Shown here piece after piece: positions 9,573 through 49,543 of a DNA stretch of 49,543 bases. Location: positions 1-49,543 of the forward strand of contig JAQGDQ010001288.1 in the NCBI GenBank assembly GCA_030141605.1, written 5' to 3'. The notes under the pieces are model-generated. The model was not told where the DNA came from, searched no databases, and worked only from the letters and a program-made list of their open reading frames with translations. Origin of the DNA: Tubiluchus corallicola. Taxonomy: Eukaryota; Animalia; Priapulida. Within the stretch, counting starts at the first letter, position 1, and every line of letters starts with the position of its first letter. A program made the position numbers and the translations under genes.

Positions 9573-9806
9573 GAACAGCATTTTTATGCACTCACAATAG
9601 GATATGTCTGCCTTTGTCGTGAAACTGCGAGTCTGTCCAACGATGTTGTTGATGTCAATGATGTCTGCAATGTTGCATGTTTGGGTGACACCGGTCAATT
9701 TTGTGGTGGCGACAGCAGCTTCTTTTCCTACGGACTGGCTATTAAGCCTGTTCCCGATTATTCTGTCAAACTGTCTGATGCCGTTGCAACAAATATGTAT
9801 GATACG
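9573..9806 (+). CDS. PKD1-like exon 3, C-half of WSC domain
   Basis: ttttag/gtgagg; EQHFYALTIGYVCLC...CNVACLGDTGQFCGG; phase 0-0. Confidence 0.9.
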
Positions 9807-11102
9807 GTGAGGTTAACACTTGTTGGGTACTTCATTATAGAACTTGGCATAAAAATGCATCTGTTTCCATTTAATTTTCCGGGTAATATTTATCCTTTAT
9901 CGCACACCCGGCCGGGAATTTTATAATTTTTTTGTATGTTCATATGCTTACTTGACACAGTCATATAAAAGCATATTTTTTTATTTTAGAATGTAAAAAG
10001 CAATAATTATGATAATGTGGTTCTTTTGGGGAATGCAAGATACAGCCATGTTTTTCCACGGCTAACTCTCGGCCAGGGTTGAATGATTCTCATTGTATTG
10101 GAGGCTAAAAAGTATAGAATTTTCCACCAAATCGGTGTATTAACGGCTGAGTAGTGTTGCCGCTTATACCATAATTATCAGAACATACTTTCATGATATA
10201 AGAAAGAGACTTTTCACAAAGCTTGAAAAATTTTTTTTGAAAATTTTTTTCTCACTCTTTACTGACACCATTTGAGCTCATGAGGTAAAATAGAAGCAAA
10301 TATTTTTTGGTCAGCCTAATTATGACATTTTTGTCATTCTGTAAAGTACTAATTCGAATTCTGTACTTTCTGTAAAGTAACATTGTTGCGGGTCACATGA
10401 ATGACGTTACATGTTTTGTCAATCCAAACGTACAAGCGTAATGTGCTTACTGATCTCCGGGAAGTTGAGTTTTCATAAATCGTGCAAGTTCTCGTATTTT
10501 TGTGGAAAACGTGTCTTTATAATTTGATAGGACGGTTTGGAAATCTTATTCATCGAGCTTAAGATCTTGTCTCCCATCCATCCATCCGTCCGGCACATAA
10601 ATCCCTTTTATATCAGGGCGAGTAGCAATGTATATTGTACTACTAGGCTAATTTTCTACTCAAAAACGTTAAGGCGCACACATATGCTTGCTCTAATGCT
10701 GCAACAACACAAAACAAATTTGGGTTTATAAATGTTATACCGCCGTTACGCACAGCTAAGTATATATTACTCTTTATCTTTTCAGCCTTAAAGTTATACA
10801 TTCACTATGCTTCCTCTTTTGGCCATTATGTCCTTCAGTAGGCAAACTGCATAAATTTTTCCCTCTCCAAATAACATTCATCTCAAGCATTTTTCATCAG
10901 TTACTCCTTGCCAAGGGACCTTGTTTCTCATCTGTGTGTAAAATTCACAACTTAATATTATGTGTTTTGCAGTTTCAATAGTTTTACTATATTTACAAAG
11001 GCTTTTTTCTATGCAGTAAATCTACTTTCCAAGCATACAAGGGATTTCCCAACACTTCTAATGCACCAACCCTAGCTTTGACAAGCAATTTCGCACCCCA
11101 TG

Positions 11103-12292: not shown

Positions 12293-12362
<70 letters not shown>

Positions 12363-16073: not shown

Positions 16074-16485
16074 CAGGGATGAGAATTTTCCGCGGAAACG
16101 CGGAATTCCGAGTTTTTGGAAGTGCCATTTTTGTAAATCGCGTAAATTCGTTGAGAAAATTTTTACGCACCCAGTACATTATTTCACAAGCTGACCGCTA
16201 GTTGGCAGGCCGTCACTTTGTCACGTCACAATAGAATCAATTGTGCGGAGTTATTTGAGTCAATTGCAGACAGTTTTGATATACTTTTGCATAGGAGCGG
16301 CCAGTACTTAGGCATTTTTGAGACAATTAGGTATCATGTATCCTTGATAGTTGGATATTATGCATGAAACAAGGTAATTGATATTTTAAGTCCACTTAGA
16401 GGCTCTCTATGGTCACAAAATTGCAATTTGTTACTGGCTAATGGCCTGTTTCAGAGTTTTTTGCAATTTGTAATTCTCATCCCTG
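16074..16485. mobile_element. MITE family A copy 2, internally deleted
   Basis: cagggatgag/ctcatccctg; 6-bp flanking repeat ttacat. Confidence 0.9.
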
Positions 16486-22847: not shown

Positions 22848-22953
22848 ATAAGTATAACAACTGGTCCGGAAATGACACTTGAAGGCGATACGATCATTGC
22901 GGCCGCTGGTGAAGATTGGATATTTGAGAACCTTCTCTATGACGAATATGGAG
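22848..22953 (+). CDS. PKD1-like exon 9
   Basis: tttttcag/gtttgt; ISITTGPEMTLEGDTIIAAAGEDWIFENLLYDEYG; phase 0-1. Confidence 0.75.
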
Positions 22954-22985
22954 GTTTGTAAGCGAAACTCGCTGGAACTGTAAAT

Positions 22986-23962
22986 CATGTAAAAACTGTA
23001 GTCTGGTACCAAGTAAAACTGTAGTCTGGTACCATGTAAAAACTGTAGTCTGGTACCATGTGAAAACTGTAGTCTGGTACCATGTAAAAACTGTAGTCTG
23101 GTACCATGTGAAAACTGTAGTCTGGTACCATGTAAAAACTGTAGTCTGGTACCATGTGAAAACTGTAGTCTGGTACCATGTGAAAACTGTAGTCTGGTAC
23201 CATGTGAAAACTGTAGTCTGGTACCATGTGAAAACTGCAGTCTGGTACCATGTGAAAACTGTAGTCCGGTACCATGTAAAAACTGTAGTCTGGTACCATG
23301 TGAAAACTGTAGTCTGGTACCATGTAAAAATTGTAGTCTGGTACCATGTGAAAACTGTAGTCTGGTACCATGTAAAAACTGTAGTCTGGTACCATGTGAA
23401 AACTGTAGTCTGGTACCATGTGAAAACTGTAGTCTGGTACCATGTGAAAACTGTAGTCTGGTACCATGTAAAAACTGTAGTCTGGTACCATGTGAAAACT
23501 GTAGTCTGGTACCATGTAAAAACTGTAGTCTGGTACCATGTGAAAACTGTAGTCTGGTACCATGTAAAAACTGTAGTCTGGTACCATGTGAAAACTGTAG
23601 TCTGGTACCATGTAAAAATTGTAGTCTGGTACCATGTGAAAACTGTAGTCTGGTACCATGTAAAAACTGTAGTCTGGTACCATGTGAAAACTGTAGTCTG
23701 GTACCATGTGAAAACTGTAGTCTGGTACCATGTGAAAACTGTAGTCTGGTACTATGTGAAAACTGTAGTCTGGTACCATGTAAAAACTGTAGTCTGGTAC
23801 CATGTGAAAACTGTAGTCTGGTACCATGCAAAAACTGCAGTCTGGTACCATAACTGTATTCTGGTACTGTGCAAAAACTGTAGTCTGGCACCATGCAAAA
23901 ACTGTAGTCTGGTACCATAACTATATTCTGGTACTGTGAAAAAACTGTAGTCTGGTACCATG
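22986..23962. repeat. 24-bp minisatellite, about 40 copies
   Basis: catgt(g/a)aaaactgtagtctggtac. Confidence 0.97.
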
Positions 23963-26419: not shown

Positions 26420-27187
26420 CAGGGATGAGAATTTTCTGCGGATACGCGGAATTCCGAGTTTTTGGAAGACCAGTAGTTCCATTTTTGTAAATCGCGTAAA
26501 TTCGTTGAGAACATTTTTACGGACCCAGTACATTATTTCACAAGCTGACCGCTAGTTGGTAGGCCGTCACTTTGTTTACAACACGTACATCAGTGTAACA
26601 ACGCGTATATCTCTATGTATAAAAATATAGAATCAATTGTGCGGAGTTATTCGAGTCAATTGCAGACAGTTTTTATATACTTTTGCATAGGAGTGGCCAG
26701 TACTTAGGCGTTTTTGAGATAATTAGGTATCATGTATCCTTGATAGTTGGGTATTTTAAATTATGCACGAAACAAGGTAATTGATATTTTAAGTCCACTA
26801 ATAATGATTTTTTTTGCATCCGACCTGCGTACATCATTACTACTGCACTACTACACTCAAGAAACTATTTTAGAAGTTATTAAAATTTATATTACAAACC
26901 ATATATTTCTACTTTCAGGACAGATAGTGGTAATTTCATTACAATGCATATTAGTAGTGTGTATCACACGGTCTGTGTAGTACAGTGTTATTAAGCTACA
27001 ACTGTCTTGTAAGGGTTAATGGCATCCGATCTAGTAGAAAAAACTACCCGCACTATCTTTGGGATCGTGGCACGGACTTCAGCTGGATACACTCAATTAA
27101 TCGCCCGGTCCGCACTTTCATTAGTTTGACAAATCTCTTCGCGGTCCGCACAAATTCTCTCGGCGGGCCGCAATTTGCACACCCCTG
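26420..27187. mobile_element. Chimeric MITE: family A left part fused to family B right part
   Basis: Family A sequence to about 26799, then sequence matching about 281-662; ends CAGGG...CCCTG; no TSD. Confidence 0.85.
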
Positions 27188-27283: not shown

Positions 27284-28997
27284 ATCCAAGTGAAGCACAG
27301 ACTTCTTGGCCTAGAGCTGACGGATTTATTCGGAAATAATGGAGAAGATCAGTCGTCAGGAAAGCCGGGGGATTCACTTGGAGATAGTGAAGAAGATCAG
27401 ACAACGTCAAAAAAGGTCGGAATAGCCAAACATGCACCAATAAACATCTTGCTTACGCTGACAAGTGGAACGGATTACAAATGCATGTGGCAGATTGGTA
27501 ACATAGCAAACGAGACAGTCGATTACACCGATCGTGCCACGTCCCAGAACTTTGCCGTCGCTCGTCCAAACATCGTGCTCGAGGAAAACGGAGAGTACAC
27601 CATCGTTGTTACATGTTGGAATGGTTTAAAGGTTGCCGGAACGCTCGATTCCACCGACGTCGTCAGCGTATTGAGCGATTCCATTTCCGTTGTAGTTGCC
27701 GAGGCCATCGGAGACGTCTTTCTCCAACCGGACGGGTTTGTCTTTGGTACGGCCAGACCCGACGTCACGTGCAGGATCAGTCAAGGTACAGTGGAGGAAA
27801 ATAGTTGTGTTATTACGCTAGATGGCACCGTTTTGCCCATAACAAACTTTGATGAGGCAACGCTCACATGGACTGCATCTTTGAAAGAATACAACTTCAT
27901 TTCTGCAGAGGTCAAAAAGTTACAGTGTAACATTACTAGCATGACCGGCGCCGTATCTGGCACATTACCTTTCAGCGTTTCCTATACTTTGGGCGAGCTT
28001 ACTTTGAAATTGACCAATCGGAACGGCACAGAGATTCAGTACGGGCGTGCGGACGTCACTCTTGTGAAACTAACCGTTACAATCTCCAGTGGTTCGGGAC
28101 TTACCGTAACGTGTGATTTGGGAAATGGATTCGTCTGGATTGAACAAATGGAAATGGGATTCGCCGTTAGCGAGTTACGTCCTATACGCTTTGAGCACAC
28201 TTACTTCATTGTGGGCAACATCACAGTCAGGTGCAATGCTACAAACACCCTCCATCAAGTGACGTCCGGCGTGGCATGGATTAAAATTGAGAGTCCCATT
28301 CCGGACAACATTGACTTCAAACTTGGATGGGTCTGCAAGGACGACCCGCCTGCTTGCCCCCTTCCAATCCAGAACCCACAAATAGCTTACACTTATTTTT
28401 CTCTGGTCAACCCGGGACCTCATCCGGATCCCTCGGATCCCATGTGCTTGTTCGACTGCACGTTTGTTAACGGAACTGATTCGCGCTGGGTCCACGACGA
28501 ACCGGTTTCTTGCTACGATAAAGACGAAATGATCTGCCAGTACGACAGACTGGGCAAATCTACCATCTTTATGAAGATCTTCAACATGATAAATACTGTC
28601 TACGTGGAGAAGGTGCTACAGATAATGACGAATATCACGGGCGCCGTTGCCACCTGGAATAAGCCGTACGATGCCTGTGTGGATTCTACTTTCACGATTT
28701 CGCTCACTATAAGCACCGGAGAAGATGTCAGTGCTTACATAGATTTCGACTACGATGCCGAACCACGCTCTGATTCGCTGCCACCCTCTGATTCGCTGTC
28801 AGAGACTAAGCCAGTAGAAGCCGGTGCATCCGTTCCCGTGCAGTTTTCTCATACTTATACCAGCGTTGGTATGTTTCAAATAATGGTAACCGTTTTCAAT
28901 GATGCGGCTACGATCAACATTCCGTACGAAGTTTGGTCTCATCAGCGGGTCATGCAGCAGAATTACATATTGGAAAGCACTGCACCGCAGTTTACTG
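27284..28997 (+). CDS. PKD1-like exon 11, 1714-nt exon with several tandem PKD repeats
   Basis: ttgcag/gtatga inside the 606-aa ORF; GEYTIVVTCWNG, CDLGNG...HTYFIVGNITVRCNATN, IDFD...HTYTSVGMFQIMVTVFN. Confidence 0.95.
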
Positions 28998-29151: not shown

Positions 29152-29673
29152 CCGGGATGAGAATTTTCCGCGGATACGCGGAATTCCGAGTTTTTGGAAG
29201 ACCAGTAGTGCCATTTTTGTAAATCACATAAATTCGTTGAGAAAATTTTTACGTATCCAATACATTATTTCACAAGCTGACCGCTAGTTGGCAGGCCGTC
29301 ACTTTGTTTACATCACGTACATCAGTGTAATAATGCGTATATCTCTATGTATAAAAATATAGAATCAATTGTGCGGAGTTATTTGAGTCAATTGCAGACA
29401 GTTTTTATATACTTTTGCATAGGAGCAGCCAGTACTTAGGCATTTTTTAGTCAATTAGGTATCATGTATATTTGATAGTTGGGTATTTTAAATTATGTAT
29501 GAAACAAGGTAATTGATATTTTAATTCCACTTAGAGGTTCTCTACGGTCACAAAATTGCAATTTGTTGCTGGCTACAAGGGGGCTTTGCCCCTCAACCCC
29601 ATTAGGGGCCTAGGTGGCCCCAAAAACCCCGGCATGTTTCAGAGTTTTTTGCAATTTGTCATTCTCATCCCTG
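29152..29673. mobile_element. MITE family A copy 4, inside a degenerate family C element
   Basis: ccgggatgag/ctcatccctg; right flank resembles the interior of 41023-41657. Confidence 0.85.
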
Positions 29674-30232
29674 CTTCCCAGTGTGCACCACTGACTCACC
29701 AAAAACACATAAAATAATTTATACTTTTGCTCAGTTAGTGAAATCCACGCTACGAATGGTCTATTTATTTTCTCAAACTTTGTGCAACGTCATCTAAACT
29801 TGTTTCAAACGATCTACCTTCAAAACAGCTGCTCCTAACCGTCATCGCGGGATTTTAAATGTAGAAGTTTTATGCAGGGTTGCTGCCTACACAAGTTCTC
29901 TATTCAATAAGAGAACTTAATGCCAGGCACGTGAGTGATACGACATTTCAAGATGAATTTTTTAGCTTGATGTATGTAAGTAAAGGATTTTCTAGAACTT
30001 AGACTTTCATTGAAGTCGTCATTAAAGTGAAACATGCGTTGTTAAGTGAATAAAAGGTCAAAAAGATCAGTGTCGTAAAACCAAACGTCGCTAAACGGGG
30101 AGCCATTAAGGGATGACTTACTGTACTTCTAATTTACAAATTGTTTTGTGTTAGACAAGTAATTTTTATGTATTTTCATTGCTTTGTCCAATAGCAATAA
30201 AATTAATCTATTTTTTGCTAATTTTTGTGCAG

Positions 30233-30459
30233 GAGTCCCACTGGAATTTAGGCTAATTTATGATGACTCGTCTGGCCTCCCTCCAGCCACCGATCCGCAG
30301 TGCAAAATGTGGTTCAATGACGGAACGATTCCTCCTGAAAATGTAACCATCCCGTGTGATGACCCATGGACGCATTCTTACAATACTTCTTCATTGGAAA
30401 ACAACGTAGCTAATCTGTATGTCAGTAACAAGTGCAATACGGAAAAGTTTACTATTAGG
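30233..30459 (+). CDS. PKD1-like exon 12, degenerate PKD repeat
   Basis: gtgcag/gtgagt; MWFNDG...THSY...LYVSNK; phase 1-0. Confidence 0.9.
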
Positions 30460-30600
30460 GTGAGTTGATTTTTTTTGTCTAGAAGAACTAGTTTCATGCT
30501 GTTTTCTTAATTCCTTCTTTTTCCTTTTTCTTATGACTTTTTCATCTCTCGTTTACTCCCTTTCTTCCTTACTTGCCTCCTGTTTGTCTCTTTTTGTCAC

Positions 30601-30852
30601 TAGCCAGCGTACGCCATTGGCCAGCATACGACATTAGCCAGCATACGACATTAGCCAGCGTACGACATTAGCGTACGACATTAGGTGTACGTCATTAGCC
30701 GGTGTACGTCATTAGCCAGTGTACGGCATTAACCGGTGTACGTCATTAGCTGGTGTACGTCATTAGCCAGTGCACGACATTAACCGGTGTATGACATTAA
30801 CCTGTGTACGTCATTAGCCAGTGTACGTCTTTAACCAGTGTATGTCATTAGC
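30601..30852. repeat. 17-bp minisatellite, about 14 copies
   Basis: tagcc(a/g)g(c/t)gtacg(a/t)cat. Confidence 0.9.
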
Positions 30853-31121
30853 CCATTTTCCTATAATTGTTGAAGAATCACACAAGCAGAAGTTTTTACA
30901 TCCATAAATGTGCACATATTATGTACTCATTTAGACAATCAGCCATTTGTAAGTTTTTGCTATTGAAATAACTGAGATCATCATTACTCGAGTAAGTACT
31001 GAATTCTAAAAATTGTTCGCACTTTCCTTTAATATGTCATGCAATCTTTCAGACGTATTTACATGAAACTGGTTAGTTTAACAATTCATATTAAAAAATT
31101 AAGAAATGATTATTTGCGTTT

Positions 31122-31484
31122 TTAAATAAATGGTAAACGGTATAGCAGCAATAAAGTCAGAGTCACGGTGGAAGATTTGTGACGATATCCCGCACCAGCA
31201 CTCTTTGGTTTTGTGTAGGCGTCAAGGCAGTCGTAGTATATATCCCCGGTTTTTGTATCTTTACAGCATTTTGTGTAGAAATCGGCTTTTTTTCCTTTCT
31301 CCATGGCGCAGTAGTAGCACACTCGTTTGGCCGTCACGCCCTCACTGTTACTGTCTACACACCTGCCCTTTTCGTAGGCCATGAGCCTTGATATGGTTAT
31401 CTTCTTTGTGCACCCGTTTACTGAAGTTAGCAGCACTACTAGGAGGACAGTTACTGCCAGGACGTGCTTCGTGCATGGCGCCAT
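31122..31484 (-). CDS. Nested gene A: 120-aa secreted Cys-rich protein, predicted GPI anchor, unknown family
   Basis: Hydrophobic 24-aa leader ending SVNG, 7 Cys, hydrophobic C-tail; ATG directly preceded by acceptor cttttcttgtccatag; ungapped paralog at 37588-37977. Confidence 0.9.
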   Translation of the reverse strand: MAPCTKHVLAVTVLLVVLLTSVNGCTKKITISRLMAYEKGRCVDSNSEGVTAKRVCYYCAMEKGKKADFYTKCCKDTKTGDIYYDCLDAYTKPKSAGAGYRHKSSTVTLTLLLLYRLPFI

Positions 31485-31601
31485 CTATGGACAAGAAAAG
31501 CGAAATCGTTCTATTAGCGAGCAATTTTTACATACAATTCGTATAACCACGAAGTGAAACCTGAATTGTTGCCAAGTTGTACTAGTGTTATGAACCCACT
31601 G

Positions 31602-32033
31602 CAGGGGCGGAACTAGGGGGGAGGGAGGGGGGCCCCTTGTCAAAATTTGCGCCCCCCCCCTGCAAAATCTGACAAATAATTTTTTTTGCAGTGAAAATTG
31701 CAGTTCGCATGTAATCATTTTCAATATGAATTAGAATTAGGTAAAAAAATGTTTGGTAGCTTCAGTGTTTTATTTTCTTAAAACTTGTGTGTGATAAATT
31801 TCTGTAAATATCAATTTAGTTAGAGGCACACTAATAACGTTAGATTAACTGAGAGTTAATTTTCTCATTATTGCTCTGTCCGCTACGCCGTCCTACACAC
31901 ACGCTAATTATAGGCCTGCATGCAGTATAAAAGGGGTTAAAATTGGCTTAACCATTATTTAACCACTTCGGATACCTCGCCCCACCCCCCAGTAGACCGC
32001 CCCCCCTGCTTGCCACATCTAGTTCCGGCCCTG
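31602..32033. mobile_element. hAT-like MITE in the intron of nested gene A
   Basis: TIR caggggcggaactag/ctagttccggccctg; 7/8 TSD ac(c/t)cactg. Confidence 0.8.
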
Positions 32034-32211
32034 ACTCACTGAACAATAAAATAAGCCTTTTCACAGTTTCAGCGAGTGATGATGATCGTCAAAAGGTCAA
32101 AGGTTAAGTGTACCAGACAACGCATTTGTGTACATTTGACAACGCCTTGTAACCCACGCTGTTGTAATACTAGCAGTTTTAACACAATTTAACAGCTAGC
32201 TAGAACCTTAC

Positions 32212-32340
32212 CTAGTTCATTTTTCTTGTTTCCAAGCAAAATCCTGCTAGTGAATGACTCTACACACAGACTAATGCATAAAGTCCACGCAAAACAACTG
32301 ATGTTACTGAACTGATGTGGCAGGCAGCTTTGCGGTTATA
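32212..32340 (-). promoter_or_regulatory. Putative promoter and non-coding first exon of gene A
   Basis: TATAA (32340-32336) about 27 nt before an initiator-like TCAGTT (32315-32310); exon ends TAG|gtaagg at 32212. Confidence 0.55.
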
Positions 32341-32581
32341 GTTAAGGCACATTGCTGGGCTATACAGCAACTGCGCGTGAGTGCAATGAAACTGTGAGAA
32401 GGCTTGTTTTTAATCTTGTGGGTGATTGAAATGACTTGTTAATAACTTGTTACTGTTGAGAAAGGTGTTTTAATCGGGTCACAGACAAACCTGAACATTT
32501 TAACTTTTTCACTTTTCAAATTTTTTGTCAGATTTGTGTAAACAAAGCCTTAGAAAAGATGCAAACTGTTATAGTAAGTCC

Positions 32582-33135
32582 CAGGGATGAGAATTTTCCG
32601 TGGATATGCGGAATTCCGAGTTTTTGGAAGACCAGTAGTGTCATTTTTGTAAATCGCGTAAATTCGTTGAGAAAATTTTACGGACCCAGCACATTATTTC
32701 AAAAGCTGACCGCTAGGTGGCAGGCCATCACTTTGTTTACATCACATACATCAGTGTAACCACATGTATATCTCTATGTATAAAAATATAGAATCAATTG
32801 TGTGGAGTTATTTTGGTCAATTGCAGACAGTTTTTATATACTTTTGCATAGGAGCGGCCAGTACTTAGGTGTTTTTGAGACAATTAGGTATCATGTATCC
32901 TTGATAGTTGGGTATTTTAAATTATGCATGAAACAAGGTAATTGATATTTTAAGTGCACTTAGAGGTTCTCTACGGTCACAAAATTGCAATTTGTTGCTG
33001 GCTCCAAGGGCGCTTTGCCTCTCAACCCCATTGGGGGCCTAGGTGTCTGTGGTCACAAAATTTCAATTTCAGCACCTATGCCCCAAAACCCCCGGCCTGT
33101 TTCAGAGTTTTTTGCAATTTGTCATTCTCATCCCT
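32582..33135. mobile_element. MITE family A copy 5, inserted in the TIR of the Tigger-like element
   Basis: cagggatgag/ctcatccctg; 6-bp flanking repeat aagtcc. Confidence 0.9.
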
Positions 33136-33376
33136 GAAGTCCTCACTTAATTACTCCCTGATTAACAATATTTCGTTTTAACGACTCTGAACATTTTGCT
33201 CACTAAACAATGCTCGTTTCACTTTAACAACAATTTTTTTACTTTACTTAAAGCCATTTTTCATTTTGACAACAACATTTTTGCCTAATTTGAAGTATTA
33301 AAACAGCACATGTTGTGTTATTCTGTTCAGAAACTTGGTAATAACATAAAGCAGCACAATTATTACTCATGTTTTT

Positions 33377-33566
33377 GCTTCGTTACCGTTGTTGATAGAG
33401 TAGGAAGGCAGGTAAGTGTGGCTTCGTTAGCCCTGTTGGTAGAGTAGGCAGGTAGGCAAGTGCGGCTTCGTTACCGCTGTTGATAGGGTGGCAAAGGCAG
33501 GTAAGTGTGGCTTCGTTATCGTTGTTGATAGAGTAGGAAGGCAGGTAAGTGTGGCTTCGTTACCGT
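33377..33566. repeat. 44-bp minisatellite, about 4 copies
   Basis: gcttcgttaccgttgttgatagagtaggaaggcaggtaagtgtg. Confidence 0.85.
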
Positions 33567-34011
33567 GACTACTAAATGCTAGCCATTTATAACAATGAGA
33601 TCTAGTTTAGTTTTGCATGCCTACAGGCATCTGGGTGCAAACTTTATGTGAAGGAATTTTGGCTGTCACCTATTGCTATAGCAACCAGTATCCAGAAGAA
33701 ATGGTCTCAAAGATGCTGCTAGGGTGTGGCTTTTACTAGGCAGTGTTTAATCATTAACTGCGAGTAGGACTTCAGTGTTAATGAAGAGAAACTGCTAGCT
33801 TGGTATTGGTAATAACATTAACATAATTAACGTAAAAATTAACATAGAAATTAACATAAAAATATGACGAAAACTCACGAAATAATATAATAATAATAAT
33901 AATAATAATCTTTATTTAAAGTCGGCTTTTGGGTCAACAATTAACATGAGCTCAAAGAGCTATTATCGCCGACTCTAAATAACAACCTACAACTACATAA
34001 CAGAGACTATT

Positions 34012-34162
34012 ATTACCCCACTTTTACCCTAAATACCATGCGTCAGGCAGGGCAAAGCAGGTACCATTTTTAAAGTCTTTGGTATTACCCGGCTGCTGGT
34101 TCGAACTCACGACCTCCCAGACGGAAAGCAGACGCATTACCACTAAACTAAACCGTCTGGTC
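34012..34162 (-). mobile_element. tRNA-derived SINE, MetaSINE-like core
   Basis: A box tagtttagtgg, B box gagttcgaacc, then taccaaagactttaaaaatggtacctgct. Confidence 0.7.
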
Positions 34163-34449
34163 AAAACATTTAGTTTATATGGATTAAGCAGCATTGTTTT
34201 TTGGCTCTGGAACGTATCTCAGTTCTTTTACATTACTTTCTATGAATGTTTTGGTTTCATTTAACGACGTTTCGCTTAACATCGCATTTTGCTGGAACGC
34301 ATTAGCATCGTTAAGCGTGGACTTACTGCATTAGGAAAATTGTCATTGATTGGTTTTCCTAATAAAGGTAGAGTGTTAACATTGATGATAAATTCGTTTT
34401 AATTACTATTACTACTACAGTATTTAGTTATGTAATTACGAATAATATC

Positions 34450-35110
34450 TGTGTGTTTGCATAGCAAAAACGTCCATAAGTCGGCAATTAGGCTCTTCTA
34501 GTTATTCACATATCCTGAATTTCCATTTCATGAGGATCATTTTGGTACCAAGCTCATCGCTCTATGTTATTTCTAAGCTGAGATAATCTACGTTGAAGTT
34601 GAGGTGCAGGCTTCACACTGAAAAACATAACCTTGAGAAAATCACTGTTAAAGTCAGCCATTGTTTTTTGTTACGTGTCTACAAAACTCTTAGCAAAAGT
34701 ACAAATGTTGGTTGCTACGGACTTTGCAAGAGCACATTGAAGTTATGTTTAAATCCAGTAGGTGGCTTTTCCTGGCTCAGATCTGGGCTTGGCAACAGCA
34801 AAAACCCGAAGCAAAATGACTGCTTCCATGAGCTACTATTGAAGTTTGAAAATACAAGTTTTTTACAATTGCAGTAGTAGTTTCTTGGCAGAAAAGTGGG
34901 TAAGGAGTAATAAAATAGATTTTTAGTAGTTTTTGGACATTTTCCTGATAATCTGATGCTAGAATATAAAAGTCCAATACATTTAGCATTTGTTTTCAGA
35001 AAAATAAAAAATCGACATTTGACCAAATTTTTGGTGCTTTCTACTTTTTAGCATCATAACGTAGTTTTGACTATGCCGACTTGTGGACGGTTTTGGTTTG
35101 CAAGCACACA
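34450..35110. mobile_element. Family F element copy 2
   Basis: Colinear with 8488-9070. Confidence 0.75.
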
Positions 35111-35576
35111 TTTTATAATTTCATATTTACCTTCATAATGTGTAATTGCATATCTAGTGTGCTATACAGGTACAACGGAGTGTTGGAGCTTCGACGAATA
35201 TCTTAGAGCCAAAATAGTTGTATTTTGAGTTAATAAAATGTCTGCATGTTGTCTTTATCAAAGCTGCTCTGTCACATGAGCCATTTTCTTGCCATGTGCT
35301 CCTTGAAATGCCAGTTTTATCCTTTTCCAGGATGAAAGATGAAAGTGACTTCTACACCTTTATGTCATCTGCTCACACAGTTTCCTGTGGTTGCGCACTT
35401 TTGCCTGGTATTCTCTTGCATTTTTGTAAAGAAAACAGGCCAGCCTGCAATCCTACTTCAGCAACAAGATGTTCTAAATGCACCTTCTAATTGTAGAACA
35501 ATATAACTATTATTGCAGAGTGAACCGAAACAATGGTTAGAGCGTAGAAACAATGAGTTTTATTGTTCCTTTGTGT

Positions 35577-36028
35577 CAGTGGCGGCTGGTACATAGGCAC
35601 TGCGGAACTGCAGCACCCCCTATTTTCACTGGCTATTATCGATAACATTCAATATAGTGAGTCATTTTTTTTCCTTTAATTCTTTGTTCATCTTTGTACA
35701 TTATATAATCCTTATGCTTAATGCCAGTAGCCACTTCCTAGTTTATGAAAAAATTACTAGAATCCTTATATGGAACTGTGCGCTTCACAGTTCCAGTAAT
35801 GTGGTGTTTGGCTGTTATGCACATGCGACCATGTCTGAGATAAGAAGCTGCATGCTAGATAGAGAAAGCACTGTCGCTCACGCAGTGCCGACTCTGTTGT
35901 GCAAGTGTAAGGTAGTGTTTCTTTTTGACTAAATTTTCTTTTTATGTGTTTGTATCATTTCACACAATATTAAAACAATGGCTAAACATTTACAGCACCC
36001 TACTAGTTTTAACTACGAGCTGCCACTG
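35577..36028. mobile_element. hAT-like MITE family D
   Basis: cagtggcggct.gt/acgagctgccactg; related copy about 38095-38635. Confidence 0.7.
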
Positions 36029-36841
36029 TTTTGTATCTGCTTTCCTAGAGCTTCTTAAAGCATTTGGTAATGTTTTTGAGACAGTTGCATTTGTTGTTTT
36101 AGAAAGATATGGTAGATCAGAAGTACTTGAATTAAATTAGATTTTTATTTTTTTTTCTTATGCAGTCATACATACAATGTCACATTACTAACACAGAACA
36201 AGAAAAAGTACTTCCATATATATATATTTAGTGATGCCTGAAAGCACTTAGACAATAAAGATGTACAAACGCATGAGTCAAACTACTAATGAAATTCTGT
36301 TGTCACTGAGCATTCTGACTGATCATTCAAGTATAACAACACTAGGACAAAACAGAATTTTTGTGAAAGTAAAAAAATGAATTTAAACTATGCCGCAGAA
36401 GAAAAACTAAATTATGAAATCTACTGGTATCATCAACGTGAATTAATTATTGAAGTTTTCACTCAAAATGAAATGCACGAGATGCTCTTATATTCACTTA
36501 TTAATTCAAAATTGGATATATTGTATTGAATTTTTTGAATATATGTCTATTGTTACTAATTATCTATATCCACCTCTGTATTGTGTATTGCATTAATTTT
36601 TAATTTGCAAAATAAATGATATATATATACATATATTTGTGCTAAGAACTAACCTTAGTTGTTGAAGAACTGAACAAGTCATTAGTACTATAGTACATAC
36701 ACAATATGCACACACTGCATGCACAATGCACATTCAGACAGTCTGTCATTTTTAACTGTTATAACTATGATAAAATGTTACACTAAAACGAGCATTACAG
36801 CTAACATTTGTACATACATTCCTTTCGATACATGTCAAATG

Positions 36842-37538
36842 CAGCATGTCCTCGCTTAACGATGCTAATGCGTTCCAGCAAAATGCGACGTTAAGCGAAA
36901 CGTCGTTAAACGAAACCAAGACCTCCAGAGCAAATAATGTAAAAGAATTGAGGTACGATCTAGAAGCAGAAATCAATGCTGATTAAATCATACACATCAA
37001 ACGTTGTATGAGTTTTATTCATATTTCTACCGATTAATTTCTTTCTGTTCGCTTGAAACCACCTATCTTTCTTACCAGTATCTAGCTAGACTTGCTAGCG
37101 GTCTCTTGAAGCCTACGCATAGGCAGTTACCAGTTAAACACTGCGTAGTGAAAGCCAAGCCCTGCACGAGGCGACCTTGAGACAATTTCAGGTAATAGTA
37201 ATGGTTGTTTTATAGCAACAAGTTTGAGCCATAATCTTTGGCATAAAGTTTAAACTCATGTGACTGGAGGCGTATAGATCAGCAAATAGATCTGGCCTGA
37301 TTCAAACGGCTAGAATTTAGTACGTCTTCAGTCGGGAAGCAGAAACACTATAATAATTGCACTTCTTAGGTTACTAATGTGTTTTACTAATTAGAATTAC
37401 ACAATATGTACCGTTTTAATGCTTCAAATTAGGTAAAAAAAAGTTGTTGACAATATAAAAATGGTTGCGAGCAAAGCAAAAAATCGTCGTTAAAATGGGA
37501 CGTCGTTAAATGGGGAGTCGTTAAGCGAGGACTTACTA
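36842..37538. mobile_element. Tigger/pogo-like element, inverted relative to 32572-34328
   Basis: TIR gtcctcgcttaacga/tcgttaagcgaggac. Confidence 0.75.
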
Positions 37539-37587
37539 TAATTCATTCAGGCCTTTTATTAGAAAACTGGCTAGCTTACCTAGTCAC

Positions 37588-37977
37588 TTACAAGAAATGA
37601 TTATGTATGTTATTTAAGCAAAGAAATAGTGAACCGAGTAGCAGTAAAGTCATTGTCATAGCAGAAAATTCATGATGATTGCCTATGCCAGCTGCTTTTG
37701 GTTTTGTGTACGTGTCATGGCAGTCATAGTATAGTTCTCCCGTTTTTGTATCTTCACAGCAGTCAGTGTAGAACTCAGCTTCTTTGTCTACCTCCATGGT
37801 GCAGTAGTAGCACACTCGCTTAGCCATCTTGCCATCCTCGTTAGCGTCTATGCATCTACCCCTGTCTTCTGACATAAGGCTTGTCACGGTTATTCTCTTT
37901 GTACACCCATTTACTGATGCTAGCAGCGCCGCCTGGAGGACCAGGATTAAAAATACGTGTTCCACAGATGGTTTCAT
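37588..37977 (-). CDS. Nested gene B: 129-aa paralog of gene A
   Basis: MKPSVEHV...SVNG-CTKR...; 45/70 identical to A in the mature core, all Cys conserved; ATG directly after acceptor ttttctgttgcag. Confidence 0.9.
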   Translation of the reverse strand: MKPSVEHVFLILVLQAALLASVNGCTKRITVTSLMSEDRGRCIDANEDGKMAKRVCYYCTMEVDKEAEFYTDCCEDTKTGELYYDCHDTYTKPKAAGIGNHHEFSAMTMTLLLLGSLFLCLNNIHNHFL

Positions 37978-38094
37978 CTGCAACAGAAAATCATCATCGT
38001 ACTGGCAAACTAGTGGAAAAATTGACTGAAGAAGCTGCTAAGTGATGGTTTGTCTATGACTGGGTTAAAAGAACTTTTGCAGAAGACTGACAGC

Positions 38095-38635
38095 CAATGG
38101 CGGCTCGTGTACAGGTACTGTAGTACTACAGCACCCCCTGTTTTCACTCATTGTTATCGATGATATTCTAAGTTTTTTTTTCTTTTACATCTTTTTTATA
38201 TTTGTGAGGAACCAAAACACGTGACTCTGCTGCTAGGTAGAAAATAATTGTGTCTATCACAGTAACAATTGCCACGGGCTTACCGTGTACCGTCATATTC
38301 CTGGATGTGATAAAGTGTAAACTTAGTGTGCGTGCTTAGAACATGAATTATTTAATAATGGATGTCTTGCATCCCCAAGAAATAAGTTCTGTGACTGTAA
38401 GTGAACTACAACAGCTTAATTTTTCACAGTTGTCTCTCCATGAGAAAGTTGCAGTTAAGAAAAGAGGCCGTTCAACATCTGCACTTCAAATATAACTACA
38501 ACATTAAAATTGCATATGTTTGTTATGTTTTATGTTGTTTGTTATGTTTTATGTTATGTTTTACACAGTATTAAAGCAATGGCTAAAAATTTTCTGAAGC
38601 AGCACCCCCTCCAATTTTAGTTACGAGCTGCCGCA
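38095..38635. mobile_element. MITE family D copy 2
   Basis: tggcggctcgt...cagcacccc...acgagctgcc. Confidence 0.65.
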
Positions 38636-38726
38636 CATAGCTTTTTCTTCCGAAGTGTAATGTAAGATACAGTTTCATATATGTTACGAGATCATACACA
38701 TTTGAATGTCTTTATTCTAATGTCAG

Positions 38727-39005
38727 TCTAATGGTGCATTCAAACTAGTGAGTTTTCTCTCCAAGTAACTCACAAGCGTGTTCAGACTAAAGAGCAAAAC
38801 TTGCTGTGAAATACTCTCTGACAGTAAAACGCTGACACTCAATTCTCATTTCACTGTGAGTAACACCGCAGGGTACCTCGCGGAAGCGTGCTTAATTAAT
38901 ATTGGTGAACTTGCAATAACTTGCCGGCAGTAACTCGCCAAGCAGTTCACACTGGCAAGTTTGCTGTTGGAGAGAAAACTCGCTAGTCTGAACGTGCCAC
39001 TAGAC
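38727..39005. mobile_element. Palindromic PIF/Harbinger-like MITE
   Basis: About 38-bp imperfect TIR containing actag.gagttttctctccaa. Confidence 0.6.
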
Positions 39006-39062
39006 CAAGTTCATTCACTAACATGCTTGACTGTTACATTAAACAAAGTGCTTCCTATATTT

Positions 39063-39819
39063 TTGTCGGGCGCGGACTAACCCACTAGCCGAAGTAGGAC
39101 ACTTCCTGTAAAACGCATGCGCTAAATTTGCTGAAAAGCAGTTTCGTATATGGACAGTCCAAGTAGGACACTAGCGATTTCTGTCGATAATCGAGATTTA
39201 TGCCAAAATAAAACATAAAACTAAATTTGTTTTAGAAAAAGTAACTTTATAATAATGATGAACAGTCCTTGACAATTTACAAATGTATTTTTTACAGTAA
39301 TATCATCATTATTATTAGCTCATTAATATCATCATAATATTAAACTATGTATCTAATGCTTCAAAGAGAGAAACTAAGTAGGGCACATAACTCGCTAACC
39401 CATTTACTTAGTAGAAAACAATTATTTGTCCATGAGGGAGTGAAAAGGATCACCTGTCTGTGAAGCAAGACAAAATAAAAAATGATATGCCTTAAGCAAA
39501 TGTTGCAATCGCCTAAAAAGTGCGCTTATTTCACTTCAAAGAAGATTAATATTGGCAAATATTAATTCTTCTAGCTCAGAATAAAATTCTTTTATTTTAT
39601 CAGATGTATAATAAAATTATTCAACGTGTATTGACGTTTTTAATCATTATTATTACATAAACAAGGACAAACGGATGGTGCCAGTACGCTTAGCGATTCA
39701 ATTCGCTACCTGTCTCTAGTGTCCTACTTGGGCAGCCCATGTACGACGCGTCCTACTTGGGCTAGCCCATGTACGCCAATTGTCCTACTTCGGCTAGTGG
39801 ATTACTCGGTGCCCAACAA
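39063..39819. mobile_element. TIR element with subterminal agtaggaca repeats
   Basis: ccactagccgaagtaggaca / tgtcctacttcggctagtgg. Confidence 0.75.
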
Positions 39820-39944
39820 CTTTGAATACCAGCAGTAAATTGTTTGACGTGGTGATGGATTTGTTAAACCAGTGTTTTTCATCAAATGCTAACTTACTTA
39901 TTTTCACGGGTGAGGTTATTAGTAATTTAGGCTAATTCTTTTTT

Positions 39945-40600
39945 TCTTGCCTCAGTTAAGTGCTGGGATACCTCTTGGTATCCGTATCTCTATCTCTTTA
40001 AACATCTTTAAATTTCGACTAAAAAATCACACGTGTTTTAATAAGCGGCCTACTTACTTTTCAAGTGGTACTCGAAATTCATCTGTACACCATACTAGAA
40101 TGAGAGTTGGTTTTTGCTAACTTAATTACGATTTGTACTTCAGATGGGTCGCTAGTATCACCTAATTGTCAATATGATTCTACTTATGAAACAGTCGGTC
40201 ATTACTTAATTAGCTGCCCTCTTTATCATCAGGCTAGACATGACTCATTTACAAATCTCTGCACTCTTTTGTCAGCTTTTAACATCGATGTTTACAGTGC
40301 TGCATCAAATGAACTTGTACGTTTGTTCCTGCATGGGAACCATACCCTAGATAATTCTCTGAACACTCGAATTTTTGTTTTAGTGCAGTCTGTTATTTCA
40401 AACACCAAGCGCTTTAAATAATATCAACTTTGTTATTCTTGTTACATAGTAATGTTCATATTTATTGCAACATTTTTTATACATTGTGGTCACCATTGTT
40501 CTGCATCTGTCTAGCGTTTCGCTCCAACTATGGGAGAACTTATATCAGTTGTAAAACTATCTGTTTCAAACCTATATGTTACACCTTCAATAATAAATTC
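39945..40600 (+). mobile_element. 5'-truncated LINE (CR1/L2-like) 3' end
   Basis: Decayed ORF2 C-terminus HTRMRVG...C...ETVGHYLISCPLY...R...LHGNHTL...N..IF..VQ..I..TKRF, then AATAAA. Confidence 0.75.
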
Positions 40601-41022
40601 AATACAAAATTCTTCATTATATCCAAAACTTGCTAACACTGGTTGTGTAAAGCGATGTTGTCGTTGAAGTTCTTCACTAAAGGTACACTGTCTAATTTTT
40701 TTTTGCAAATAAGGTTAAATTTAAAGAAAGGGTTAACCCTTCTGGAAAGTTGGACTTAATTCAATGTCACGAAAAACGTTTAAAAAATGTGATAAAAGTG
40801 TGACAGGTGTCACTAAAATCATTTTAAAGTCGCGATCATATCACGCTTGGACGCCCCCATTTTGAATGGGCGTTCTTCCACCAATGACGTAATTCGTCGG
40901 CTGAAGAAAAGCAGTACAGCGACACTTTGTGTCGAAAGTATTCATTTTTAAAAATCTAACATCGTCAGTAGGTAATTTTGCAATATTTTTGCTTGGACAT
41001 TAGATAAGCTGCAGAAGTTTAA

Positions 41023-41657
41023 AGGACAAGAAAAGGGGCACCTAAAGTAGTTTCAGAAAAATTGCCTTAAAAAATTATATTACTTTACAGCAATTTTATA
41101 TCTACACAAAACTCGGTTAAAAGGAATTTTTGTTTGTTTTCATTTTAAATACTGTTCCGATGGCGCCATTACATGATGTCACTTGCGCACAACATAAATC
41201 AGGGGAAGAAAAGGCAATGTTAAATTATGTCTCAAAAAACTTTCCATGCAAATCTATATTACTTAGCATTTCGCTTAGCTGCTGGAAAGACTCATGAAAC
41301 TAGAAATAATAATTTAGAATGTTTTCACCAATTGGTAAAATGTCGCTGACTCACCCTCCAGGGTGCACCACTCACTAATCAAAAATGTATTTTTAATCTT
41401 ATTGACAAAATACAGTAATTTAAAATTTTACTTTCTTAGTGAAGTGTGCGCTACGAATGCTCTGACTATTTCTTCAAACTTTACTGAATGTTATCGAAAC
41501 TTGTTTCAAACGACCTACCATTTACATTTAAATTTACATGTTTTAAGCAGCGTTACGGCCGATGAATGCCTTGCATACGAAAAGGCTGTATGTAAGTGGT
41601 ACAAAATATCGAGACGAATTTTTTAAGCTTTATGTAAGTGGAGGGTTTTCTTGTGTT
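41023..41657. mobile_element. Kolobok-like MITE family C
   Basis: TTAA flanks, aggacaagaaaa/ttttcttgtgtt; further copies at 44593 and 45730. Confidence 0.75.
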
Positions 41658-42349
41658 TTAAGTTTGTTTAAACAGTGCGCTCTTACGGAAGCGCGTACAA
41701 AAAGTCATGGCGCAGTCCACCAGTCACTTCATAACTTTCAAGTGACTGGCGTCTACCACCATCCCTGAAAATTTCTATTCGGCAGTAGTATGAATTAACA
41801 TTATGTTTTATAGATAGCGTTTTGCAAATTTCGTTCTTATATTTTTCTAAGTTTGAGTGATAACAGTAAAATAAACCGAACATGCTAAATGAGTTGTCCT
41901 TTCCTTTAAATTACTGCTTTTGCGAACAAGATTTCCTGCATACCCACTTACTGGCAATGGTGTGTAAAGATTATGAAACAACTTTTTAAGTTAAAGCAAA
42001 TTTATTTGGTCAGCAAGACCAGCAAGACCTAATTTTTGCAGCATGCATTTTACCTTTTGTTGTTTTCTTACCATGTATTTCTCTAGGTAGGATCAGTTTT
42101 ATCCTTTTTCTCCGCCTGGAAATATGTCGGAACAATTTTTTGCCCTCTGTTCGCTCACTTTCAACTGCACTTACACTTGTCTCCGGTTCTTTCTTGCATC
42201 TTTTGAAAGTTAACAGAACAATGTAGGATCTTACACAGGCGGAAAAACATTCCTATTGTGATGGAACGAAATGAAACAATGGTTAGAATACTGAAACAAT
42301 GATTTTTTAATGTAAACTTGTATGCATTTTTCTAGACTTTTTGTAGAAC

Positions 42350-42670
42350 AAATAACCTTTTCACAGTTTTGTTGTGCGCATGCCCAGTTGCTGTAGGTCA
42401 AAGGGTAAAGCAAAGCCGTCTGTCACATCAGTTCATTAACTTCAGTTGTTTTACGTCTACTTTGTTTAATTGTTATACATTAGTCTGTACATAGAGTGAT
42501 TTACTAGCTGGATCTTGCCAGGGAACAAGAAAAAAAGTAGATAAGGTTTTGGTTAGCTGTTACAACTATTAAAATATTACAATAGCATGGACAGCGAGGC
42601 GTTGTCAAGTGCAGACAAATGCGTTGTCTAGTACGCTTAATTTTTGACCTTTTCACAATCATCATCAATT
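42350..42670 (+). pseudogene. Inverted relic of gene A promoter, exon 1 and intron start
   Basis: Colinear with the reverse complement of about 32070-32410; donor GT is AT at 42541, TATA is lost, no coding exon follows. Confidence 0.65.
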
Positions 42671-42892
42671 CCTGGAAAGCCTTACTGATAATGCAAATAT
42701 ATGATACCTGTATGCAGAAGTGTCCACTCTACTGATATGTACAGATGACTATGACTATGACTATGACGGAATTGATGACTATTTTATTACCCGAGAGGGC
42801 AAGTTGTTCAATGTCCTTGCTCTTGCTCAAAGTGTAATTTGCTGTTCAAATGTTTTTTGGAAAATTTAATGATATAACCGTCTCTCTTTAAG

Positions 42893-43043
42893 GTGGACGT
42901 TTACGATGATGCCACGGTCGGAGACATATTGGCCAAGTACACTCCACCGAAGCCGCTGAACGGACCTCCGCAACCTGGCCTGGGACAGGACCACAATGAG
43001 TTTCCGGATAATTTATGCATCGAGCTTTTCATTTCACATACTG
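42893..43043 (+). CDS. PKD1-like exon 13
   Basis: ctctttaag/gtataa; VDVYDDATVGDIL...PGLGQDHNEFP; phase 0-1. Confidence 0.8.
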
Positions 43044-45505: not shown

Positions 45506-45642
45506 GCACTGTGAGTTCTTACGAACTAGACTGTACTGACAACAGTGGCGACACCTTTCAGCAAACGTTCGAGGTAGGAGACGAAGCTGTCACGAAACAC
45601 AATGAGGCAACAGATTCAATCTGTGTCTTTTTCGATGGATTG
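45506..45642 (+). CDS. PKD1-like exon 14
   Basis: tttttcag/gtacgt; GTVSSYELDCTD...CVFFDGL; phase 1-0. Confidence 0.8.
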
Positions 45643-45729: not shown

Positions 45730-46204
45730 AGGACAAGAAAGGGGCTCCTGAAGTACATTTCAGAAAAATCGCCATAAAAAATTATATTACTTTATAGCAA
45801 TTTTAAGCATATATCGTATTAACGTTGAAAGGATTTTTTGTTTGTTTACATTTTAACTCTCCTGCAATACTGTTCCAACTGCGCCATTACATGACGTCAC
45901 CTACACAAACAGAAATCGTGGAAAAAATCTTAAATTATGTTCCAAAAGACTTTCCATGCAAATCTATATTAATTTGCATTACTCTGATCTAGACTACGGC
46001 CAAATAATGTTGAAAACACCGGTTCTCGCCTGATCACCAAAGTTAAGCAATATAGAGCCTGGTTAGTACTTGGATGGGTGACCGCCTAGGAATACCAGGT
46101 GCTGTAGGCTTTCGGATGGCCACATGATATCTCGACACTAGGCGGAGGAGCTGCACATGCACGGCTAGAGGGCGGAGGCGGTCAAGTGGAGGGGTTTTTG
46201 TGTT
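45730..46204. mobile_element. Family C copy 3, interior replaced by a 5S-derived insert
   Basis: Both termini present, middle missing. Confidence 0.7.
45992..46110 (+). pseudogene. Full-length 5S rRNA-like copy (pseudogene or SINE3 head)
   Basis: 119 nt gactacggcc...gtgctgtaggct with A/C boxes; stem mismatches; only 3 T at the end, then a GC-rich extension to about 46183. Confidence 0.8.
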
Positions 46205-46258: not shown

Positions 46259-46412
46259 GTTGGAGAAATTCAATGCCAGCTTACCGTGTCTAATCCGCTG
46301 CAAAACATTGTGATTGATCCAGCCTGGAGCGAGCACGTCCAGCTCATATTCCACGTAAAGCAAGCTGCTGGAAGCTGTCACATTGTCGACGACGGAGCCG
46401 TCGTAAATGACG
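46259..46412 (+). CDS. PKD1-like exon 15
   Basis: ttttctag/gtagga; VGEIQCQLTVSNPL...VDDGAVVND; phase 0-1. Confidence 0.8.
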
Positions 46413-47658: not shown

Positions 47659-47835
47659 GTGAACCAAAGTCAATAGGATTCGCGTGTGATGAATACGGTT
47701 CTGGAAGCTGCGCTTGCTATGATTGGGGTGACAGGTACCAGGAGTGCTATGGTTTAAAAGAAGACTGCCTTCAGAATCTTTTTGCTCAGCCAACAGGTGG
47801 ATTGTCAAGTAAACGGAAGAAAAGAGAGACGGCCA
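47659..47835 (+). CDS. PKD1-like exon 16, PKD N-half plus Cys-rich insert ending in KRKKR
   Basis: ttacag/gtacgt; CACYDWGDRYQECYG...SSKRKKRETA; phase 1-1. Confidence 0.8.
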
Positions 47836-48677: not shown

Positions 48678-48850
48678 TGTTTAATGATCCGGTTTTGCAC
48701 GACACTCCACTCAATGGTACCCTTGATTCAGCGCACATTTATACCGATCCGGGAAAGTACGACGTAAAGCTGTGCCTGTGGAACTCTGTTTCATCCGTGT
48801 GCAAAACTCAAACCGTGGTCACTGGTGTATCTGAGTGCAACCTTCCTCAA
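48678..48850 (+). CDS. PKD1-like exon 17, PKD C-half and start of REJ-like region
   Basis: ccacag/gtgagt; HIYTDPGKYDVKLCLWNSVS...ECNLPQ; phase 1-0. Confidence 0.9.
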
Positions 48851-48974: not shown

Positions 48975-49543
48975 TAGGTCGTCTTAGTAGTTTGAACAGA
49001 TACATAATGGGTCGTCTCAGTGGGTTGAACAGGTACATAATGGGTGGTCTCAGTAGTTTGAACAGATACATAATGGGTCGTCTCAGTGTGTTGAACAGGT
49101 ACATAATGGGTCGTTTCAGTGGGTTGAACAGATACATAATGGGTCATTTCAGTGGGTTGAACAGATACATAATGGGTCGTTTCAGTGGGTTGAACAGATA
49201 CATAATGGGTCGTCTCAGTGGGTTGAACAGATACATAATGGGTCATTTCAGTGGGTTGAACAGATACATAATGGGTCGTTTCAGTGGGTTGAACAGATAC
49301 ATAATGGGTCGTTTCAGTGGGTTGAACAGATACATAATGGGTCGTCTCAGTGGGTTGAACAGATACATAATGGGTCGTCTCAGTAGTTTGAACAGATACA
49401 TAATGGGTCGTCTCAGTGGGTTGAACAGATACATAATGGGTCATCTCAGTAGTTTGAACAGTTACATAATGGGTCGTCTCAGTGGGTTGAACAGATACAT
49501 AATGGGTCGCGTCAGTGGGTTGAACAGATACATAATGGGTCAT
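48975..49543. repeat. 36-bp minisatellite, 15+ copies, runs off the window
   Basis: tgaacagatacataatgggtcgtctcagtgggt-containing unit. Confidence 0.95.

What the first reader, a model, noticed from the sequence alone, without database searches (positions are those of the whole stretch)
31122..37977. Antisense pair of unrecognised secreted 7-Cys, GPI-type protein genes nested in a polycystin-1/REJ-like intron
Seen: two minus-strand ORFs (120 and 129 aa) in the longest intron. Each has a 24-aa leader ending SVNG, a 70-aa core with spacing C-x16-C-x13-C-x2-C-x13-CC-x11-C, a small-residue stretch (SAGAG/AAGIG) and a hydrophobic tail. They are 45/70 identical without gaps while the flanks have diverged, and both have an acceptor AG directly before the ATG. 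Known: REJ/polycystin-1 proteins are cell-surface receptors in sperm and sensory cilia. Inference: an undescribed surface micro-protein family, possibly functionally linked to the host receptor. Nesting alone does not prove a link.
Basis: partly seen in the sequence, partly recalled or inferred. Interest (0 to 1): 0.85.

Follow-up and report, generated by a model that had tools for sequence, protein, structure and literature searches.

The report
Orphan surface-peptide twins inside polycystin intron
Two duplicated small genes with no detectable relatives sit backwards inside one intron of an animal polycystin-1-like gene and likely encode cysteine-rich, lipid-anchored cell-surface proteins, but their position there is probably incidental rather than a sign that they work with the host receptor.

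Summary
Observation confirmed. ORF A (31122-31484) and ORF B (37588-37977), both on the minus strand, have 24-aa leaders, 45/70 identical cores with Cys spacing 16-13-2-13-0-11, hydrophobic tails and AG directly before ATG. They are under purifying selection (dN/dS 0.43, bootstrap 0.25-0.74, p=0.001). They lie in a 12,433-bp intron (30460-42892) of a WSC+PKD-repeat gene whose five exons around it join without a stop; no REJ domain was detected in the window. No relative was found in Pfam, NCBIfam, PDB, three large protein searches or metagenomic and viral contigs. Folding was uninformative (pLDDT 46-53). The scan had not noted this on other DNA. Best reading (0.55): independent, likely GPI-anchored disulfide micro-proteins from a local duplication, nested incidentally. 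New here: the cores differ in charge (+6 vs -4). The Themis features I could test (fibrinogen ligand, first intron) fail, so a functional link gets about 0.1. A tethered CHH/ITP-like peptide (about 0.15) is not excluded. A real orphan family, but small Cys-rich orphans and nested genes are common.

The parts
31122..31484 (-). Gene A, single coding exon, 120 aa: leader 1-24, 7-Cys core 25-94 (net charge +6, pI 9.0), candidate GPI omega site S95-A-G, 15-aa hydrophobic tail
31485..31512 (-). Pyrimidine tract and AG acceptor directly before the ATG of A, alignable with that of B; implies an unlocated upstream exon or leader
31045..31121 (-). 3' region of A still alignable with the tail and 3' region of B; ATTAAA 88 nt past the stop
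37588..37977 (-). Gene B, single coding exon, 129 aa: leader 1-24, 7-Cys core 25-94 (net charge -4, pI 4.9), candidate omega site A95-A-G, longer hydrophobic tail
37978..38003 (-). Pyrimidine tract and AG acceptor directly before the ATG of B
30460..42892 (+). Host intron, GT..AG, phase 0, 12,433 bp, repeat-rich; holds both genes
   Evidence: repeats
27308..28997 (+). Large host exon with PKD domains (true acceptor a few codons upstream of 27308)
   Evidence: Pfam PKD E=1.2e-10; donor GTATGA
30233..30459 (+). Host exon immediately upstream of the intron
42893..43043 (+). Host exon immediately downstream of the intron
9574..9807 (+). Host exon with the second half of a WSC domain (first half likely in an exon near 4314-4436, read by eye)
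   Evidence: Pfam WSC E=7e-6, below the curated cut-off
48678..48850 (+). Last host exon seen in the window, end of a PKD domain
   Evidence: Pfam PKD E=1e-4, just below the cut-off

Best explanation
A and B are two selected, tandem-duplicated genes nested antisense in a host intron, and they likely encode small disulfide-bonded proteins that are cut from a signal peptide, GPI-anchored and displayed on the cell surface as ligands or receptor modulators, independently of the host gene. Shown: open frames, purifying selection, shared acceptor, nesting, no detectable homologue. Inferred steps: (1) a 5' non-coding exon or a leader is spliced to the AG before ATG; (2) signal peptidase cuts at VNG|C, leaving Cys25 as the N-terminus; (3) six cysteines form three disulfides and the seventh is free to link to a partner or to be acylated; (4) the tail is exchanged for GPI near residue 95, leaving a domain of about 8 kDa on the membrane; (5) after duplication the two copies diverged in surface charge (+6 vs -4) and so probably in partner. 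The large, repeat-rich intron is simply where the gene landed or arose and then duplicated.
For: dN/dS 0.43 over 110 gap-free codons, bootstrap 0.25-0.74, Fisher p=0.001; core alone 0.45, 0.22-0.94, p=0.03. Leader hydrophobicity 3.4 and 2.9 (KD, 12-residue window), with V at -3 and G at -1 (the -3/-1 rule is recalled). Tail of A: small S-A-G, 8-residue polar spacer, 15 hydrophobic residues, 25 residues from omega to the end, best 19-residue KD only 0.85, too weak for a transmembrane helix. The tails differ by a 3-nt and a 5-nt indel yet both stay hydrophobic, as expected of a cleaved signal. 8 of 9 charge-changing differences make B more acidic (p=0.04, post hoc). Only 2 contigs of DNA run X1 match part of A at 80% or more, A and B themselves, so this is not a transposon fragment. 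Base rate of unrelated nested genes: PMC4394429 (passages).
Against: No SignalP or GPI predictor was available; the calls rest on hydropathy and recalled rules. In B the candidate omega site lies 34 residues from the end, longer than the usual 17-31 (recalled), and its 19-residue KD of 1.76 is compatible with a membrane span. No upstream exon was located. Partner and function are not tested. With two sequences the selection estimate is wide.
Confidence: 0.55

Rival explanations
1. Themis-like receptor-ligand cassette: the nested proteins are ligands or modulators of the host polycystin-1-like receptor, kept genetically linked to it, for example in gamete recognition.
For: In Ciona, v-Themis genes lie antisense in an intron of the polycystin-1-like s-Themis genes, and the two form recognition pairs (PMC7018956, passages). 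Here too, secreted or surface genes lie antisense in a WSC+PKD gene.
Against: v-Themis is fibrinogen-like, lies in the first intron and is highly polymorphic. A and B have no Pfam hit and lie after about ten candidate exons. Nesting is common and mostly unrelated to the host.
Confidence: 0.1
2. Membrane-tethered derivative of the CHH/ITP (or eclosion hormone) helical neuropeptide fold, acting as a juxtacrine or shed ligand, for example of a receptor guanylyl cyclase.
For: From Cys42 the core reads C-x13-C-x2-C-x13-C-C-x11-C with Arg two residues before the CxxC. The recalled CHH spacing, C-x15-C-x2-C-x12-C-x3-C-x8-C, has the same span from fourth to last Cys (recalled, not from a call). The last segment has helical amphipathy (p about 0.04, 1 of 4 segments, uncorrected). 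Earlier AI notes suggest a priapulid, that is an ecdysozoan, genome (untested). Drosophila ITP signals through a membrane guanylyl cyclase (PMC13311285, passage).
Against: No Pfam hit at E up to 10 and no CHH-family entry among the PDB sequence hits. Seven Cys with a CC doublet instead of six. No intron after the fourth Cys, which nearly all CHH-family genes have (PMC2841656, passage). Three of four segments show no helical periodicity.
Confidence: 0.15
3. One gene with two alternative terminal exons: a single promoter and 5' exon upstream of B splices to either B or A, giving an acidic or a basic isoform.
For: Each ORF starts exactly at an acceptor, and the acceptor region is conserved. No single-copy sequence is shared upstream of both; the upstream matches are short, and the main ones lie in high-depth repeat bins. 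Both have candidate polyA signals.
Against: 6.1 kb separate A from B, room for its own promoter; 5' UTR exons diverge fast, so the lack of shared upstream sequence says little. No transcript data. The proteins made would be the same as in the best reading.
Confidence: 0.12
4. Not GPI-anchored: a plain secreted or single-pass peptide with a structural (Tyr-rich, cross-linkable), antimicrobial or defensive role.
For: The tail of B could span a membrane; the cores have 7 and 6 Tyr in 70 residues; A is cationic.
Against: Both copies keep a small-residue triplet, a polar spacer and a hydrophobic end despite tail indels; the tail of A is too short for a TM helix.
Confidence: 0.08

Closest known systems
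Ciona v-Themis / s-Themis self-sterility gene pairs (PMC7018956, passages read)
   Same: A gene for an extracellular protein nested antisense in an intron of a polycystin-1-like gene.
   Different: v-Themis is fibrinogen-like, in the first intron, one per host gene and hypervariable. Here there are two 8-kDa Cys-rich GPI-type paralogues in a late intron between PKD exons, with no shown polymorphism or link.
Ly6/uPAR (LU, three-finger) GPI-anchored proteins (PMC4839075, passages read)
   Same: Signal peptide, 70-80-residue disulfide domain and GPI tail; tandem paralogues; likely the same way of working (surface modulator or ligand).
   Different: LU has ten Cys, an N-terminal LxCxxC and a C-terminal CCxxxxCN, typically over three exons. 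Here there are seven Cys, the CxxC is central, the end is CC-x11-C, and there is one coding exon.
CHH / ITP neuropeptide superfamily (PMC2841656, PMC13311285, PMC10501145, passages read)
   Same: Core of 60-80 residues right after a signal peptide; central CxxC preceded by Arg; similar overall Cys span (spacing recalled).
   Different: Seven Cys with a CC doublet, no phase-2 intron after the fourth Cys, a hydrophobic anchor tail, and no profile hit.
Polycystin-1 / REJ family (host gene; PMC1934368, passages read)
   Same: WSC followed by several PKD repeats in a large multi-exon gene.
   Different: REJ, GPS, PLAT and TM segments, which define the family, were not detected in the window.

Membership tests
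Ly6/uPAR (LU) | Ten (7-10) Cys with N-terminal LxCxxC and C-terminal CCxxxxCN | tested here: not met
   Spacing 16,13,2,13,0,11; no CCxxxxCN (definition); no Pfam hit
Ly6/uPAR (LU) | Three-finger fold | tested here: inconclusive
   Models at pLDDT 46 and 53
GPI-anchored proteins | N-terminal signal peptide plus small omega triplet, polar spacer and hydrophobic C-terminus | tested here: met
   By hydropathy and recalled geometry: clear for A (S95-A-G, 25 to end), borderline for B (34 to end); no dedicated predictor
GPI-anchored proteins | Actual GPI attachment | not testable with these tools
   Needs PI-PLC release or mass spectrometry
CHH/ITP superfamily | Six conserved Cys in the CHH spacing | tested here: not met
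   Seven Cys, CC doublet; no Pfam hit at E up to 10
CHH/ITP superfamily | Phase-2 intron after the fourth Cys | tested here: not met
   Uninterrupted coding exon; feature, which lists a few exceptions
CHH/ITP superfamily | Helical fold | tested here: inconclusive
   Low-confidence models; helical periodicity in 1 of 4 segments
Themis pair | Antisense nesting in a polycystin-1-like gene | tested here: met
   host family assignment rests on WSC+PKD only
Themis pair | Nested gene is fibrinogen-like and in the first intron | tested here: not met
   No Pfam hit; late intron
Themis pair | Extreme allelic polymorphism linked to host alleles | tested here: inconclusive
   One DNA run, possibly the assembled individual: 1/417 and 4/495 differences
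Themis pair | Egg-coat versus sperm expression and binding | not testable with these tools
   Needs tissue RNA and binding assays
Polycystin-1/REJ (host) | PKD repeats (with WSC) | tested here: met
   Pfam PKD in 4 of 13 ORFs (one above the curated cut-off), WSC in 1
Polycystin-1/REJ (host) | REJ domain, GPS, PLAT, TM segments | not testable with these tools
   None among the ORFs scanned; the gene runs off the window and no genome is held

The most novel reading that the evidence does not exclude
A second, independently evolved Themis-type cassette: a polycystin-1-like receptor that carries its own pair of oppositely charged, GPI-tethered peptide ligands, of a new disulfide family (perhaps a tethered CHH-type fold), antisense in its intron. 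That would give a genetically linked ligand-receptor pair for an invertebrate polycystin-1.
Probability: 0.1. Interest if true: 0.85.

Novelty: new variant of a known kind. Interest (0 to 1): 0.36.

Why it matters
As it stands: a new small disulfide scaffold for a surface protein in a poorly sampled animal, useful as a family seed but of modest general interest, because orphan Cys-rich secreted proteins and nested genes are both common. If the nested proteins prove to bind the host, they would be candidate protein ligands for a polycystin-1-type receptor, whose ligands are a long-standing open question, and a second origin of the Themis arrangement. If they prove to be CHH-fold, they would be a membrane-tethered form of that hormone family.

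Tried and rejected
Homology searches without a hit: Pfam, full proteins and cores; NCBIfam; 5.8-billion set with B, 70-226 aa, 0 of 21 candidates and with the core alignment, 38-123 aa, 0 of 1; 1.84-billion representatives with A, 0 at E up to 0.001; metagenome contigs 0 of 141 and viral contigs 0 of 104 pattern matches confirmed. These collections are poor in animal proteins, so the blank is weaker than it looks. ESM Atlas: no usable hit for A, and one 0.77 hit for the core of B to a 58-aa, mostly arthropod hypothetical cluster, below what shuffled proteins often reach; a lead only. PDB sequence hits were weak (Mdm4 zinc finger E=0.17; actinohivin E=0.015 summed over three short GRCxD-type stretches, best stretch E about 11-12); rejected. 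AlphaFold2: pLDDT 46 (full A) and 53 (core of B), both mostly beta and unreliable. Foldseek: 0 matches at E up to 0.001. VIA-align: best Z 3.9, 0 of 48,161 at Z 5 or more; uninformative. Homodimer prediction of the A core: no verdict, score 0.00. RNA: no RNA holder listed; run X2 (RNA only by guess) had 0 contigs on A and no depth over the large host exon either; no evidence either way. Host homologue search: 0 hits among 7,992 candidates; PDB 0. A candidate plus-strand exon at 39665-39835 was not needed for the host frame and did not pass my acceptor scan. Cone-snail DREP families (1-2 disulfides, PMC10501145, parts 2-3 of 7 read) and two-finger toxins (12 Cys, bioRxiv 2025.07.03.662903, passages) do not match the Cys pattern. 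Two literature searches for such a family or arrangement returned 0 papers; they are phrase searches of open-access text only. The tail dN/dS included a few out-of-register codons and was replaced.
Full report
Observation. The two minus-strand ORFs are present as described: A at 31122-31484 (120 aa) and B at 37588-37977 (129 aa). Both have a 24-residue leader ending SVNG, seven mature cysteines spaced 16, 13, 2, 13, 0, 11, and 45 of 70 identical core residues without gaps; both ATGs follow a pyrimidine tract and AG. tblastn finds no third copy in the window. DNA similarity extends 26-28 nt upstream of ATG and about 75 nt past the stop of A, and the tails differ by a 3-nt and a 5-nt indel, which explains the two lengths.

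They are real, selected genes. Over the 110 gap-free codons, identity by codon position is 80/89/65, dN is 0.29, dS 0.68 and dN/dS 0.43 (bootstrap 0.25-0.74; Fisher p=0.001). The core alone gives 0.45 (0.22-0.94). They are the only 2 of 22 ORFs of 80-200 aa in the window that pass a leader + cysteine + tail filter, against 0 of 198 in shuffles (filter set after the fact). In a public DNA run of what appears to be the same species, just two contigs match part of A at 80% or more: A and B. Neighbouring intron segments have thousand-fold higher depth. So this is a low-copy local duplication, not a mobile element. More distant paralogues would have been missed, and the 5' part of A was not covered by a contig.

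The host. Plus-strand exons at 27308-28997, 30233-30459, 42893-43043, 45506-45642 and 46259-46412 join through GT-AG introns into 786 codons with no stop. The pair therefore lies in a phase-0 intron of 12,433 bp. Pfam finds PKD in 4 of 13 host-candidate ORFs (one above the curated cut-off) and WSC in one. This fits a polycystin-1-like ectodomain, but the REJ domain that defines the family (PMC1934368, passages) was not detected in the window; the last exon seen ends in a C-x-x-P motif that, from memory, resembles a REJ start. No homologue of the large exon was found.

What the proteins are. No relative was found in Pfam or NCBIfam, PDB sequences (only weak, rejected hits), the 5.8-billion set, 1.84 billion representatives or metagenomic and viral contigs. 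These resources under-sample animal phyla, so 'orphan' means orphan in these sets. By hydropathy the leader is a standard signal peptide with V and G at -3 and -1. A has a textbook GPI signal (S95-A-G, 8 polar residues, 15 hydrophobic residues, too weak for a TM helix); B is borderline, with 34 residues after the candidate omega site. There are no N-glycosylation sequons. That suggests different partners or a complementary pair.

Mechanism. Most likely (0.55) each gene is transcribed from the minus strand, spliced to an upstream non-coding exon or leader, and gives a domain of about 8 kDa with three disulfides and one spare cysteine, GPI-anchored at the cell surface. There it would act like Ly6-type proteins do, as a ligand or receptor modulator. 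It is not an LU-domain protein: the defining ten-Cys pattern and CCxxxxCN end (PMC4839075, passages) are absent. Nesting is probably incidental: about 10% of Drosophila and 1% of human genes are nested, two-thirds antisense, most unrelated to the host (PMC4394429, passages).

Rivals. (a) Themis-type link (0.1). But v-Themis is fibrinogen-like, in the first intron and hypervariable, whereas A and B are not fibrinogen-like, lie in a late intron, and differ from the one run available at 1/417 and 4/495 bases (weak, as that run may be the assembled individual). (b) Tethered CHH/ITP-like peptide (0.15). The Arg-x-CxxC and the overall span recall CHH (spacing from memory), and earlier AI notes point to a priapulid genome (untested). 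Against it are seven cysteines with a CC doublet, no intron after the fourth cysteine (PMC2841656, passage), no profile hit, and helical periodicity in only 1 of 4 segments. (c) One gene with two alternative last exons (0.12), which cannot be told apart without transcripts. (d) Non-GPI secreted or single-pass peptide (0.08).

Novelty and verdict. The scan's index has no look-alike of A in other windows, and two phrase searches of open-access papers found nothing on such a family or arrangement. The sequence family is new to the resources searched. The kind of thing, a small disulfide-rich GPI-type surface protein in a nested gene, is known. Interest 0.36; 0.85 if the link were shown (probability about 0.1).

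Noticed in passing
window 47659-47835 (+): A Cys-rich host exon between PKD-type exons ends in a basic run (S-K-R-K-K-R) that looks like a furin site, so the host ectodomain may be cleaved and shed. No Pfam hit; the exon's donor was not fixed.
   Followed up: partly
window 45992-46110 (+) and 12177-12293 (-): Two full-length 5S rRNA matches (94 and 73 bits) inside host introns: dispersed 5S copies or 5S-derived repeats.
   Followed up: partly
window 22900-23950: Long 24-bp tandem repeat in a host intron, open in several frames on both strands; the Pfam hits on it are repeat artefacts.
   Followed up: partly
window 14056-14578, 16074-16485, 26420-26799, 29154-29677, 32582-33136: At least five copies of a roughly 500-bp interspersed repeat, 81-94% alike, with very high depth in run X1; likely a non-autonomous transposon.
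   Followed up: no
window 37587-37592 (-): The stop codon of B overlaps a consensus donor (GTAAGT) that A lacks, so B may have a spliced 3' variant.
   Followed up: no
window 49010-49500: 33-bp tandem repeat whose minus strand reads as a Thr-rich repeat peptide; probably non-coding.
   Followed up: no
window 5893-6156 (+): An 87-aa open stretch with a plausible acceptor inside the intron that splits the WSC domain; role unknown.
   Followed up: no
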